Notes under the pieces: generated by a model
What the model saw: only the letters and a program-made list of their open reading frames with translations
Database searches by the model: none
What the model was told of the DNA's origin: nothing
Virus record (IMG/VR): IMGVR_UViG_2617270976_000003
Location: 1 to 13,188 of that record
Reading direction: 5' to 3' (one strand)
Source of the DNA: a virus
Taxonomy: Duplodnaviria > Heunggongvirae > Uroviricota > Caudoviricetes
DNA length: 13,188 nucleotides
Made by a program: the position numbers and the translations under genes
Part shown: positions 1 through 10,267 of the stretch, in pieces
How the letters are laid out: each line of letters starts with the position of its first letter
Position numbering within the stretch: position 1 is the stretch's first letter

Positions 1-1
1 C

Positions 2-118
2 CAGAAAATCATTGATATGGCCATGAATGGCGTTGGATGCCGGGCAACAGCCCGCATTATGGGCGTTGGCCTCAACACGATTTTACGTCACTTAAAAAAC
101 TCAGGCCGCAGTCGGTAA
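2..118 (+). CDS. insA: IS1 InsA, C-terminal part only (5' end off-window)
   Basis: Frame from position 2 translates to [38 protein letters not shown], stop taa at 116-118; matches the InsA C-terminus as recalled. Confidence 0.85.
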
Positions 119-540
119 CCTCGCGCATACAGCCGGGCAGTGACGTCATCGTCTGCGCGGAAATGGACGAACAGTGGGGCTATGTCGGGGCTAAATCGCG
201 CCAGCGCTGGCTGTTTTACGCGTATGACAGTCTCCGGAAGACGGTTGTTGCGCACGTATTCGGTGAACGCACTATGGCGACGCTGGGGCGTCTTATGAGC
301 CTGCTGTCACCCTTTGACGTGGTGATATGGATGACGGATGGCTGGCCGCTGTATGAATCCCGCCTGAAGGGAAAGCTGCACGTAATCAGCAAGCGATATA
401 CGCAGCGAATTGAGCGGCATAACCTGAATCTGAGGCAGCACCTGGCACGGCTGGGACGGAAGTCGCTGTCGTTCTCAAAATCGGTGGAGCTGCATGACAA
501 AGTCATCGGGCATTATCTGAACATAAAACACTATCAATAA
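37..540 (+). CDS. insB: IS1 InsB (transposase catalytic part; expressed in vivo as the InsAB' frameshift fusion)
   Basis: 167-aa [28 protein letters not shown]...HYLNIKHYQ, which I recognise as the IS1 InsB sequence; it sits in the -1 frame relative to insA. Confidence 0.9.
94..100 (+). other. IS1 programmed -1 ribosomal frameshift slippery heptamer (A6C) producing the InsAB' transposase
   Basis: Sequence aaaaaac at 94-100 inside cttaaaaaactcagg, near the insA 3' end and overlapping the insB frame; this is the established IS1 recoding site. Confidence 0.8.
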
Positions 541-560
541 GTTGGAGTCATTACCTGTTA

Positions 561-1247
561 GTGGATGACTGTCCACGATGTGGATCACAAAAAATAGCGT
601 TTGATGTTAATGGGCTGAATTGCACTAGGGTTTACAATGCATTGGGCGGGGGTAAAACATACGAGTACGAGGTCTATTGTGTTTGCCGAGAGTGTCATAA
701 AACGACAATGTTTCTTTGCAGACCTTTAACGAAAAATAAAACTTTAGATGGCTATAATTGGGAAAGTGGAATATTCGGCTTAAAGGAAGTTGCAGAGGTT
801 GTTAGGCCTATATCACCGGCAGACTTAGCAGTAGAGGAGCCACCAGAGTTCTTACCTGAGCATATCAATAGTGCATATGAGGAAGGGGCGAAATGTTTGG
901 CTATAGGTTGTTATAATGCAGCAGCAACCATGTTTAGGCTTTGCCTTGATTATGCCACAAAAGGACTTCTTCCTGATGGGGAGCAAGGGCCTGCGCAAAA
1001 AATAAGGAGAAGCCTAGGGTTAAGAATGGAGTGGTTATTTGATAATCATCTACTGCCTGAAGCTTTAAGGGAACTAGCTGAATGCGTTAAAGATGACGGA
1101 AATGATGGAGCGCATGAAGGTATTTTGGATAAAGCTGCTGCTGAGGATCTTGAAGATTTTACCTATCTTTTTTTAGAACGGCTTTACACTGAACCTCAAC
1201 GCCTTATCGAAGCCAAGACAAGGCGTGAACAAAGAAGAAACAAATAA
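561..1247 (+). CDS. Cargo protein: N-terminal C4 zinc ribbon plus C-terminal domain with a GN..AH motif (DUF4145/HEPN-like?); candidate abortive-infection or defence effector
   Basis: 228-aa ORF in visibly AT-rich DNA between the IS1 end (555) and the portal gene stop (1256). Cys at residues 4, 7, 42, 45 (CPRC ... CREC) suggests a zinc ribbon. C-terminal ECVKDDGNDGAHEG (nt 1089-1115) resembles the GN..AH signature I associate with DUF4145-type domains. The start is uncertain: GTG at 561 is the first start after the IS1 end and the frame stays open upstream into IS1, so the native 5' end may have been removed by the insertion. Confidence 0.75.
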   Translation: MDDCPRCGSQKIAFDVNGLNCTRVYNALGGGKTYEYEVYCVCRECHKTTMFLCRPLTKNKTLDGYNWESGIFGLKEVAEVVRPISPADLAVEEPPEFLPEHINSAYEEGAKCLAIGCYNAAATMFRLCLDYATKGLLPDGEQGPAQKIRRSLGLRMEWLFDNHLLPEALRELAECVKDDGNDGAHEGILDKAAAEDLEDFTYLFLERLYTEPQRLIEAKTRREQRRNK

Positions 1248-8239: not shown

Positions 8240-8664
8240 CGCGTGCGCTGGCGGTAGTGGCGGCGCTGGCACTCGTTGCGCTGGGCTGGCAGTCGTGGCG
8301 GCTTAACAGCGCCAGCCACACCATCGAAACGCAGCGCACGGCGCTGAAAAGTAAAGCGCACGAACTAACGAAGAAAAATAGCCAGCTGATCAGTCTGTCC
8401 ATTCTGGCTGAAACCAATAACCGGGAGCAGGCGCGGCTCTATGCCGAAGCAGAACAAACCAGCGCGCTGCTGAGACAACGACAACACCGGATCGAGGAAC
8501 TGAAACGTGAGAACGAGGATTTACGCCGCTGGGCTGATACTCCTTTGCCTGCTGACATTATCCGGCTGCGGGAACGTCCGGCACTCACCGGAGGTGCAGC
8601 TTACCGTCAGTGGTTGTCCGCGAGTGACGCCGTGTCGGCTGGAGCAGGCAGCGCCGCGCACTAA
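8236..8664 (+). CDS. lysB: Inner-membrane spanin (i-spanin), LysB/Rz-like
   Basis: 142 aa, N-terminal TMD (LAVVAALALVALGW) then coiled-coil-like charged region; AAAGGAG RBS; contains the embedded lysC start in another frame. Confidence 0.85.
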   Translation: MTRALAVVAALALVALGWQSWRLNSASHTIETQRTALKSKAHELTKKNSQLISLSILAETNNREQARLYAEAEQTSALLRQRQHRIEELKRENEDLRRWADTPLPADIIRLRERPALTGGAAYRQWLSASDAVSAGAGSAAH

Positions 8665-8797
8665 CGGTGATCTGAACGCATTGCTGGATGAAACGGAGGC
8701 CGCCTGGGCGGTCTGTGCAGACAAAGTGGACATGATTATTGCGTGTCAGGAGCGAAACAGTGAACAAACCACAATCCCTGCGCCACGCCCTCAATAA
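8507..8797 (+). CDS. lysC: Outer-membrane lipoprotein spanin (o-spanin), LysC/Rz1-like
   Basis: GTG-initiated 96-aa ORF in the +1 frame overlapping the lysB 3' end; signal peptide with lipobox LTLSGC. Start codon choice is tentative. Confidence 0.75.
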   Translation: MRTRIYAAGLILLCLLTLSGCGNVRHSPEVQLTVSGCPRVTPCRLEQAAPRTNGDLNALLDETEAAWAVCADKVDMIIACQERNSEQTTIPAPRPQ

Positions 8798-9636: not shown

Positions 9637-9641
9637 AATGT

Positions 9642-10172
9642 TTACGCTCTTAATAAACTTAAATAACTTTTTATGCTTTGGCAAAAAGGGAAAAGGTCTA
9701 TTTTAATTTTCCAGTTTTTTTTGTTTTGAACCCCAGAAGCAATAATAGAACCGTCCCAATATTTTATTCCATTTTTGCCGGTCTTTTTTGTTAACTCAAA
9801 ACTTAATGCGTGAATAATTTTATTGCAGCATTCGCGTATAGAATCTTTAACATGACCATCTATAACAAAAAGTATATTTTCATGTTCTTCAAATGCTTCT
9901 TTCTCAGGTGAGTAATCTGGGTTCCACTCATGTTCACTAGTGTCTTGGAGAATTCGTAGTTTTGTACAAAGGCTAATAAGATTGTTGCTAATGGTATATT
10001 CCAACCATCCGTTGTACGATAACTCCTCCATTTCAAATTCAGTTACTATAGAACCATCATATACTTTCTGTGTGGAATATATACGCTGTAAATAAAATTC
10101 AGATGAACAGCATAATTGCTCAATTATTCTTGCGTGTTCTTCTATAGCGTAATAATCAATTGGATGGCTCAT
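9642..10172 (-). CDS. Hypothetical protein of unknown function in a very AT-rich island; candidate defence or accessory cargo
   Basis: 176 aa from the ATG at 10172-10170 (MSHPIDYY...), with an AAAGG RBS about 7 nt upstream. The ORF-track start at 10211 has no RBS and overlaps the dyad element at 10204-10221. Stop is 5 bp from the S stop (convergent). No homologue recognised; contains RECCNKIIH (R113, N117, H121; nt 9810-9836). Confidence 0.75.
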   Translation of the reverse strand: MSHPIDYYAIEEHARIIEQLCCSSEFYLQRIYSTQKVYDGSIVTEFEMEELSYNGWLEYTISNNLISLCTKLRILQDTSEHEWNPDYSPEKEAFEEHENILFVIDGHVKDSIRECCNKIIHALSFELTKKTGKNGIKYWDGSIIASGVQNKKNWKIKIDLFPFCQSIKSYLSLLRA

Positions 10173-10203
10173 TCTTTTACCTTTCTTTGATTGGAATTGT
10201 ATT

Positions 10204-10221
10204 TGTGTCATTTACCACACA
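10204..10221. promoter_or_regulatory. Candidate late-promoter activator site (TGTGT-N8-ACACA inverted repeat, fits TGT-N12-ACA) between the cargo gene and V
   Basis: tgtgtcatttaccacaca is a perfect 5-bp inverted repeat and fits the P2-family late-promoter dyad. Caveat: its centre is only ~55 bp upstream of the V start codon, which leaves no room for a leader if the -55 rule holds, so spacing is atypical. Confidence 0.35.
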
Positions 10222-10267
10222 AGGACGTATTGATGCCATAGATTCAAGGTCCGTGCAACCTAACCCT

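What the first reader, a model, noticed from the sequence alone, without database searches (positions are those of the whole stretch)
1089..1115. Both cargo proteins share a [R/K]-x3-N-x3-H signature
Cargo 1 has K177-DDG-N181-DGA-H185 (nt 1089-1115) and cargo 2 has R113-ECC-N117-KII-H121 (nt 9810-9836, minus strand), with identical spacing. Two unrelated-looking proteins in separate AT-rich islands of one prophage sharing a basic-Asn-His triad suggests both could be divergent members of one nuclease-like superfamily (HEPN-like motifs are basic-residue/His based). Alternatively this is chance, since the motif is short. Note that cargo 1 has Lys rather than Arg, which could mean altered or lost catalysis.
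Basis: seen in the sequence. Interest (0 to 1): 0.55.

Follow-up and report, generated by a model that had tools for sequence, protein, structure and literature searches.

The report
Shared RNase-type motif in two prophage cargo genes
Two add-on genes of a P2-like prophage carry the same short basic-Asn-His motif: in one it is the proven active site of a known anti-phage RNase family (RAZR), and in the other it is the hallmark of an unannotated family that may be a new relative but cannot yet be shown to be one.

Summary
In detail: KDDGNDGAH lies at 1089-1115 (+) and RECCNKIIH at 9810-9836 (-), each in an AT-rich island of a prophage nearly identical to Escherichia phage Cartapus.

**Cargo 1** is a zinc-ribbon + DUF4145 protein of the RAZR / PD-T7-4 type. 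Its K177/N181/H185 align column for column with RAZR R146/N150/H154, and R146 and H154 are experimentally required for defence. Lys is the usual state in this clade (66 Lys and 12 Arg in 78 viral loci), so it is not a sign of decay. In this window an IS1 element has cut off the gene's native start codon, ribosome-binding site and promoter.

**Verdict:** the HEPN reading is proven for cargo 1 and plausible but unproven (about 55%) for cargo 2.

The parts
561..1247 (+). Cargo 1: a zinc-ribbon + DUF4145 (HEPN) protein of the RAZR / PD-T7-4 type, 228 aa as it stands here. The intact gene in phage Cartapus is 232 aa, starting ATG GTT ATG TTA GTG.
1089..1115 (+). Cargo 1 motif K177-DDG-N181-DGA-H185, the counterpart of RAZR R146-IVG-N150-QAV-H154.
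   Evidence: Translation; profile alignment to PDB 9y9c chain OA; conservation; RAZR mutagenesis in PMC13017515.
936..950 (+). Cargo 1 helix-2 motif R126-LCL-D130. R126 is invariant and D130 is D or E in 18 of 19 sequences.
   Evidence: It aligns with LLRLCLQ of RAZR.
570..695 (+). Cys4 zinc ribbon of cargo 1: CPRC at 570-581 and CREC at 684-695.
   Evidence: C4, C7, C42 and C45 are invariant. The model shows beta-strands at residues 14-55. Coordinates checked.
1..555 (+). Right-hand part of an IS1 element (insB on the + strand, terminal repeat ending ...GGAGTCATTACC at 555), inserted into codons 2-3 of the cargo 1 gene.
   Evidence: Alignment to Cartapus; sequence; IS1 matches. No complete E. 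coli genome carries this junction.
9642..10172 (-). Cargo 2: a 176-aa protein of an unannotated family (phrog_18838), sitting alone in the slot between tail-completion gene S and baseplate gene V, on the opposite strand.
   Evidence: The AF2 model has pLDDT 90. The start has an AAAGG ribosome-binding site.
9810..9836 (-). Cargo 2 motif R113-ECC-N117-KII-H121. The family signature is R-E-x-C-N-K-[IV]-[IVL]-H-A, and it occupies helix 112-120 of the model.
9942..9956 (-). Cargo 2 helix-2 motif R73-ILQ-D77, with R in 90 of 91 relatives and D/E in 89 of 91.
   Evidence: It lies at the C-terminal end of helix 45-78.
9637..10267 (.). AT-rich island (GC 0.33) between the stop codon of S and the start codon of V. 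It is the same slot that holds the unrelated non-essential Orf30 in phage P2.

Best explanation
[quoted passage not shown] This branch has seven residues between the basic residue and His, where classical HEPN has four to six.

Cargo 1 (shown by homology): it is a RAZR-type protein. RAZR uses an N-terminal Cys4 zinc ribbon to dock onto ring-shaped phage proteins such as portals. It oligomerises, its HEPN domains pair to form composite RNase sites, and cleavage of single-stranded RNA stops translation (abortive infection). By inference, K177, N181 and H185 of cargo 1 play the roles of RAZR R146, N150 and H154, with Lys as a natural variant of the catalytic Arg. In this particular prophage IS1 has removed the native ATG, ribosome-binding site and promoter. 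The gene is therefore probably silent, or expressed only weakly from the GTG at 561 by read-through.

Cargo 2 (inferred): it is most likely a second, independently acquired RNase-type effector. It would be built on a HEPN-like helical core with a roughly 38-residue beta-sheet inserted between the motif helix and the last helix. R113, N117 and H121 at the end of the third core helix, together with R73 and D77 from the second, would form a metal-independent RNA-cleavage site. The gene would be expressed in the lysogen from its own promoter, against the direction of the late operons. Whether the likeness to cargo 1 reflects deep common ancestry within HEPN or convergence is not settled.
For: Cargo 1:
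- Pfam DUF4145 above threshold and a PADLOC PD-T7-4 hit.
- DUF4145 is classed as a HEPN family with zinc-ribbon fusions (PMC3710099).
- The profile of cargo 1 and its distant phage homologues finds RAZR, PDB 9y9c, at E 5e-4. K177, N181 and H185 fall on R146, N150 and H154.
- RAZR R146A and H154A abolish defence, and RAZR cleaves ssRNA (PMC13017515).
- Distant phage homologues carry R-x3-N-x3-H in the same column.
- 66 Lys and 12 Arg in 78 viral loci.

Cargo 2:
- A profile search finds 518 cluster representatives, and 136 of 148 examined carry R-x3-N-x3-H.
- R113, N117, K118 and H121 are 93-99% conserved. R73 and D/E77 are 98-99% conserved in the second long helix. That is where HEPN families keep a conserved acidic residue (PMC3710099).
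- H121 ends a helix, as the HEPN histidine does.
- A beta-hairpin directly after the motif is known in the HEPN family Csx1.
- The shared triad plus the upstream pair was never reproduced in 200,000 permutations.
- Relatives sit in mobile or defence contexts: the P2-like S-V slot, an ICE end, and a prophage. Neighbours include an AAA_21 ATPase, HEPN_Toprim_N proteins, an ApeA-like protein with an MNT-HEPN fusion, and a HigBA pair.
Against: Cargo 2:
- hhalign against cargo 1 profiles gives 0.1-0.4% probability, and the motifs are not the aligned segment.
- An HMM of the cargo 2 family scores DUF4145 proteins no better than their shuffled versions.
- None of the 91 relatives hits a HEPN-clan Pfam model or a PADLOC model.
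- The profile finds no solved structure.
- Foldseek against the PDB gives nothing.
- Motif helix 112-120 is only nine residues long and is followed by a beta-sheet, which is not the classical HEPN layout.
- I could not superpose the two models, so the equivalence of the motif positions is untested.

Cargo 1:
- The motif lies in the least confident part of the model, pLDDT about 62.
- No Lys variant of RAZR has been assayed.
Confidence: 0.55

Rival explanations
1. Cargo 2 is not a HEPN protein. Its conserved R-x3-N-K-x2-H sits on an unrelated alpha/beta scaffold and serves another purpose: a different nuclease chemistry, nucleotide or nucleic-acid binding, or an anti-defence or regulatory role. 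On this view the likeness to the DUF4145 motif is convergence or coincidence.
Confidence: 0.33
2. Cargo 1 is a catalytically dead or repurposed RAZR relative because Lys replaces the catalytic Arg.
For: RAZR R146A abolishes defence, so the position matters. No Lys variant has been tested.
Against: Lys is present in 35 of 36 diverse homologues and in 66 of 78 viral loci, and it alternates with Arg inside one family. G180, N181, G183, A184 and H185 stay invariant or nearly so down to about 25-30% identity. This is the pattern of a functional site under selection, not of decay. Lys keeps the positive charge.
Confidence: 0.1
3. The shared motif is a meaningless coincidence of two short strings, with no functional weight in either protein.
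For: The motif has three specified residues. Its probability in shuffled sequences is 2-3% per protein, and InsB carries it as well.
Against: In cargo 1 it aligns with residues proven essential in RAZR. In cargo 2 it is the most conserved segment across 91 relatives that share only 17-60% identity with the window protein.
Confidence: 0.02

Closest known systems
RAZR (ring-activated zinc-finger RNase, formerly PD-T7-4), E. coli UMB1727; PDB 9y9c; Nature 2026, PMC13017515
   Same: Cargo 1 has the same two-domain build: an N-terminal Cys4 zinc ribbon and a C-terminal DUF4145/HEPN domain. It has the same LRLCL helix-2 motif. Its basic-x3-N-x3-H motif aligns with the essential R146 and H154 of RAZR. 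It is a single gene in a mobile-element defence hotspot.
   Different: The relationship is distant, with E 5e-4 for profile against sequence and E 1.2e-6 for the PADLOC model. Cargo 1 has Lys where RAZR has the catalytic Arg. It is encoded between cos and the portal gene of a P2-like phage. Its triggers and activity are untested. Here its 5' end is disrupted by IS1. Cargo 2 shares only the two short motifs with RAZR; it has no zinc ribbon and no detectable sequence homology.
HEPN superfamily (Pfam clan CL0291), e.g. the HepT/HEPN toxins of HEPN-MNT modules (PDB 7ae2, 5yep), as classified by Anantharaman et al. 2013 (PMC3710099)
   Different: The spacer is seven residues, not four to six. There is no adjacent MNT antitoxin. 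Cargo 2 adds a beta-sheet between the motif and the last helix, and it is not retrieved by any HEPN profile.
Csx1-type HEPN domains of CRISPR-Cas systems
   Same: They set a precedent for a HEPN domain with a beta-hairpin inserted directly after the R...H motif (PMC3710099). Cargo 2 has a beta-sheet at the same place.
   Different: Cargo 2 has no CARF domain and no CRISPR context. No sequence or fold-search link to Csx1 was found here.
P2 Orf30 (non-essential moron between genes S and V of phage P2)
   Same: It occupies the same genomic slot, on the same opposite-strand orientation, with low GC, between the O-operon terminator and the V promoter.
   Different: It is unrelated in sequence: hhalign probability is 1.1%, the length is 261 aa against 176 aa, and there is no Pfam hit.

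Membership tests
DUF4145 / RAZR (PD-T7-4) - cargo 1 | Match to Pfam PF13643 above the gathering score | tested here: met
   30.3 bits against a cut-off of 23.1, residues 110-199. All close homologues carry precomputed PF13643.
DUF4145 / RAZR (PD-T7-4) - cargo 1 | N-terminal Cys4 zinc ribbon | tested here: met
   CPRC and CREC, with all four Cys invariant down to 25% identity. The model shows a beta-ribbon at residues 14-55. The RAZR CxxC pairs align (domain 1, weak).
DUF4145 / RAZR (PD-T7-4) - cargo 1 | Catalytic Arg and His spaced by seven residues (RAZR R146, H154) | tested here: inconclusive
   His and the central Asn are present and aligned. The Arg position holds Lys. Lys and Arg alternate within the family. 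Whether Lys supports catalysis was not tested.
DUF4145 / RAZR (PD-T7-4) - cargo 1 | HEPN fold of the C-terminal domain | tested here: met
DUF4145 / RAZR (PD-T7-4) - cargo 1 | Phage defence by trigger-induced ring assembly and ssRNA cleavage | not testable with these tools
   Known only for RAZR of E. coli UMB1727 (PMC13017515).
HEPN superfamily - cargo 2 | [quoted passage not shown] | tested here: inconclusive
HEPN superfamily - cargo 2 | Rx4-6H motif at the end of helix 3, with His exposed at the start of the following loop | tested here: inconclusive
   R113 and H121 bracket helix 112-120 and H121 ends it. The spacer is seven residues, outside the range of four to six, but equal to that of DUF4145/RAZR, an accepted HEPN family. 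The residue after Arg is polar (Glu in 63 of 91).
HEPN superfamily - cargo 2 | Conserved acidic residue in helix 2 | tested here: met
   D77 in 81 and E in 8 of 91 relatives, four residues after R73 (90 of 91), in helix 45-78.
HEPN superfamily - cargo 2 | Profile-level similarity to at least one recognised HEPN family | tested here: not met
   hhalign against two DUF4145 alignments gives 0.1-0.4%. No HEPN-clan Pfam hit in 91 relatives. No PDB sequence hit. HMM scores equal those of shuffled controls. HHpred against full libraries was not available.
HEPN superfamily - cargo 2 | Metal-independent RNase activity dependent on the motif His | not testable with these tools
   No experiment was possible.
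DUF4145 (Pfam PF13643) - cargo 2 | Match to the Pfam model | tested here: not met
   None of 91 relatives at E <= 1. Cargo 2 should not be filed as DUF4145.

The most novel reading that the evidence does not exclude
Cargo 2 founds a previously unrecognised family of small RNase effectors: about 500 clusters at 50% identity, in Proteobacteria and metagenomes. The family carries the RAZR/DUF4145-type active site (R-x3-D/E ... R-x3-N-K-x2-H) on a remodelled HEPN core with an inserted beta-sheet. It acts as a stand-alone anti-phage or exclusion gene in the late-operon (S-V) slot of P2-like phages, and as the effector partner of ATPases, HEPN-Toprim proteins and proteases in defence islands.
Probability: 0.3. 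Interest if true: 0.65.

Novelty: new variant of a known kind. Interest (0 to 1): 0.42.

Why it matters
**Cargo 1.** This part adds little that is new. It places a Lys-bearing clade of RAZR-like RNases in the cos-proximal defence hotspot of P2-like phages. RAZR is known to sense portal proteins of other phages, and here the gene sits right next to the phage's own portal gene. The clade also gives a natural test of whether Lys can replace the catalytic Arg.

**Cargo 2.** This is the more useful lead. It is a compact 176-aa family with no annotation at all, and it has a sharply conserved pair of motifs that mirrors a proven RNase site. It sits in a known accessory-gene slot of P2-like phages and in defence islands elsewhere. 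If it is an RNase effector, it would add a family that current defence finders miss. It would also show that the seven-residue DUF4145-type HEPN site exists outside DUF4145.

Tried and rejected
- **Sequence homology between the two proteins.** BLASTP gave nothing. hhalign with three pairs of alignments, including alignments trimmed to the domains, gave 0.1-0.4%. An hmmsearch of the cargo 2 HMM against DUF4145 proteins and their shuffles showed no difference.
- **Naming cargo 2 from libraries.** Pfam, PADLOC, NCBIfam and PHROGs gave only the unannotated phrog_18838. Scanning all 91 relatives against Pfam and PADLOC gave only scattered noise. All 244 profile hits in the large protein collection are 'hypothetical' and carry no Pfam domain. 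A PDB sequence search gave only a spurious hit at E 0.26.
- **Fold searches for cargo 2.** Foldseek against the PDB found nothing significant. The AlphaFold-database library was not available.
- **Cargo 2 as a homologue of P2 Orf30.** Rejected; the two share only the slot.
- **The two Cys and the His of RECCNKIIH as a metal site.** Rejected. C115 is variable (Ser, Ala, Cys), and C116 is replaced by Phe or Trp in 12 of 91 relatives, which points to a buried hydrophobic position.
- **A fixed partner gene for cargo 2 relatives.** None found; the neighbours vary. The two AAA_21 ATPase cases are one lineage, 85% identical.
- **Promoter and terminator scans of both islands.** Uninformative.
- **Direct superposition of the two models.** Not possible, because the coordinates are not exposed to the scripting tool.

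Full report
**What the window is.**
- From position 556 onward the window is essentially identical to Escherichia phage Cartapus (Peduoviridae), a P2-like phage. Two 1-kb probes matched at 99.9% and 100%. The coordinate offset (window minus Cartapus) is 387 at both cargo genes.
- The gene order is cos, DUF4145 gene, portal Q, terminase P, then O N M L X, holin, lysin, LysB, R, S, a hypothetical gene on the opposite strand, then V W J I.
- Positions 1-555 are the right part of an IS1 element.

**The observation.**
- KDDGNDGAH is encoded at 1089-1115 (+) and RECCNKIIH at 9810-9836 (-).
The latter start is the one annotated in Cartapus and NCBI homologues, and it has an AAAGG ribosome-binding site.
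- Both genes are AT-rich islands, with GC 0.42 and 0.32 against 0.56 for the phage backbone.
- As a bare string the pattern is not rare. It appears in 2-3% of shuffles of each protein, and also in IS1 InsB.

**Cargo 1 is a RAZR-type HEPN RNase.**
- It matches Pfam DUF4145 above threshold, the PADLOC model PD-T7-4 and phrog_1305.
- DUF4145 was classified as a HEPN family, with zinc-ribbon fusions noted, by Anantharaman et al. 2013 (PMC3710099).
- PD-T7-4 has since been characterised as RAZR. It has an N-terminal zinc finger and a C-terminal DUF4145/HEPN domain. R146 and H154 are required for defence. The protein assembles around ring-shaped phage proteins, including portals, and it cleaves ssRNA and blocks translation (PMC13017515).
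- I built a profile from cargo 1, 15 diverse homologues and three distant phage homologues: Burkholderia phiBt-TXDOH, Gordonia Meyran gp1 and Shigella POCJ13 gp20. This profile finds the RAZR chain of PDB 9y9c at E 5e-4.
- In that alignment...laecvkddgNdgaHeg lies against ...AADICRIVGNQAVHPG, which ends at residue 156. K177, N181 and H185 therefore correspond to R146, N150 and H154.

**Lys instead of Arg.**
- Among 36 homologues of 48-99% identity, position 177 is Lys in 35 and Arg in 1.
- Among 78 IMG/VR viral loci with 37-100% identity, it is Lys in 66 and Arg in 12. The rest of the motif, C-[VI]-[KR]-x-[DE]-G-N-D-[GA]-A-H, hardly changes.
- This is the signature of a site under selection in which either basic residue is accepted, not of a decaying enzyme. 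Whether Lys changes the rate or the specificity is unknown.

**IS1 disruption.**
- In Cartapus the gene starts ATG GTT ATG TTA GTG. In the window the IS1 terminal repeat ends at 555 and the phage sequence resumes with TGTTAGTG. The first seven bases of the coding sequence, the GGAG ribosome-binding site and the upstream promoter region are therefore separated from the gene.
- The remaining frame can start only at the GTG at 561, with no good ribosome-binding site at normal spacing. No promoter-like site was found.
- None of 5,426 complete E. coli genomes carries this junction.
- Cargo 1 is therefore probably poorly expressed or silent in this particular lysogen (inference).

**Cargo 2 is an unannotated family whose signature is the motif.**
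- No Pfam, NCBIfam or PADLOC model matches it. Only the function-less phrog_18838 does.
- The word-indexed search gave 12 relatives. A full HMMER profile search of 1.84 billion cluster representatives gave 518 hits at E <= 1e-3, nearly all 170-210 aa.
- 136 of the 148 representatives examined contain R-x3-N-x3-H, mostly as RExCNKIIH.
- In an alignment of 91 relatives (17-60% identity to the window protein) the best-conserved columns are:
  - R73 in 90 of 91;
  - D/E77 in 89;
  - R113 in 85;
  - N117 in 90;
  - K118 in 88;
  - H121 in 90;
  - G147 in 88;
  - W154 in 90.
- None of the 91 relatives hits a HEPN-clan Pfam model or a PADLOC model. All 244 hits in the large protein collection are unnamed.

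**Is cargo 2 related to cargo 1?**

Negative evidence:
- BLASTP finds nothing.
- hhalign gives 0.1-0.4% probability with narrow, broad and domain-trimmed alignments, and it does not align the motifs.
- The cargo 2 HMM scores DUF4145 proteins like their shuffled copies.
- The cargo 2 profile finds no PDB sequence.
- Foldseek against the PDB is empty, with a best E-value of 0.21.

Positive evidence:
- The AF2 model (pLDDT 90) has two long helices (7-34 and 45-78) and an insert. A short helix, 112-120, carries the motif and ends at H121. A three- or four-stranded sheet follows, then a C-terminal helix at 160-175.
- This fits the published HEPN description. The conserved acid lies in helix 2, there is an insert between helices 2 and 3, and the motif lies at the end of helix 3 with His at the start of the loop. 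Csx1 gives a precedent for a beta-hairpin right after the motif (PMC3710099).
- The two families share a second conserved motif, in the same order and in the matching helix. This is R-x3-D/E in helix 2: R73/D77 in cargo 2 and R126/D130 in cargo 1.
- In permutations of the conserved positions the shared triad alone arose in about 1e-3 of trials. The triad plus the upstream pair arose in 0 of 200,000. This is a post-hoc and simple null.

**Context of cargo 2 relatives.**
- In Pantoea ananatis the gene sits in the same S-V slot of a P2-like prophage.
- In E. coli the full island is present in 22 of 5,426 complete genomes, including LF82, which carries both cargo genes.
- Phage P2 has the unrelated non-essential Orf30 in this slot, between the O-operon terminator and the V promoter. 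A recent survey notes defence loci within P2 late genes (bioRxiv 10.64898/2026.02.27.708500).
- More distant relatives have these neighbours:
  - a Brevundimonas island with a ParB-like gene, an ApeA-like protein and an MNT-HEPN fusion;
  - a Methylocystis prophage;
  - a HigBA-like pair;
  - HEPN_Toprim_N proteins, in two cases that are 34% identical to each other;
  - an AAA_21 ATPase placed 5-6 bp upstream, in two cases that belong to one lineage;
  - the integrase end of an ICE;
  - a trypsin-like protease.
- These are typical conflict-system neighbourhoods with variable partners. That suits a small effector, but it is guilt by association only.

**Cargo 1 context.** The gene lies between cos and the portal gene. 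This is inside the gpA-gpQ defence hotspot of P2-like phages described by Rousset et al. 2022 (PMC9122126).

**Conclusion.**
- For cargo 2 it is a reasonable hypothesis, at roughly 55%. It rests on motif conservation, topology, weak fold similarity and context.
- Cargo 2 must not be filed as DUF4145.
- The Lys in cargo 1 is a clade-wide variant, not degeneration.

Noticed in passing
window 1-560: An IS1 element (insB on the + strand, terminal repeat ending at 555) is inserted into codons 2-3 of the DUF4145 gene. This separates the gene from its ATG, ribosome-binding site, promoter and the cos site. The junction is absent from all 5,426 complete E. coli genomes searched, and the gene is intact in phage Cartapus.
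   Followed up: yes
window 9637-10267; L102 1440-2225 (phage P2): The S-V slot holds different, unrelated, low-GC, opposite-strand cargo in different P2-like phages: Orf30 (261 aa) in P2 and the 176-aa cargo 2 here. The slot lies between the O-operon terminator and the Ogr-activated V promoter.
   Followed up: partly
L100 4663-6606; L095 5001-6850: Cargo 2 relatives lie next to HEPN_Toprim_N (PF18871) proteins in two distant genomes; the neighbours are 34% identical to each other. In one case the neighbour is co-directional and 61 bp upstream; in the other it is convergent. This may be a recurring module.
   Followed up: partly
L098 3045-6606; L097 3700-5600: A cargo 2 relative sits 5-6 bp downstream of an AAA_21/SMC_N ATPase (983 aa; a 431-aa version in a second contig is 85% identical). 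This resembles ATPase-plus-effector defence pairs. The two cases are one lineage, not two independent cases.
   Followed up: partly
L003 6001-10065 (Brevundimonas metagenome contig): A cargo 2 relative is followed 7 bp later by an unannotated 285-aa protein with a serine-protease-like GLSGAP motif. Next come a 493-aa protein with a weak ApeA_NTD1 hit and a C-terminal LRQIAAH (Rx4H) motif, and then a Polbeta-HEPN fusion. In L101 a Trypsin_2-like gene sits 15 bp upstream of another relative.
   Followed up: partly
window 10173-10211: The mechanical ORF of cargo 2 extends 13 codons upstream (MTQIQFQSKKGKR) of the annotated ATG at 10172. All homologues start at MSHP or MPH, so the shorter form is the real one.
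   Followed up: yes
window 37-540 (InsB residue 127): IS1 InsB contains RHNLNLRQH, which is the same [RK]-x3-N-x3-H pattern. It was the only other hit in 3,663 residues of the window's other proteins, and it is a useful gauge of the background rate.
   Followed up: yes
window 8507-8797 (+): A 96-aa ORF overlaps the end of lysB in another frame. Its lipoprotein-type signal (LLTLSGC) matches the position of P2 lysC (the Rz1-like spanin). This is ordinary for P2-like phages.
   Followed up: no
NC_011993 (E. coli LF82) 2749491-2759235: The adherent-invasive strain LF82 carries the same prophage with both cargo genes intact. It would be a convenient source for experiments.
   Followed up: no
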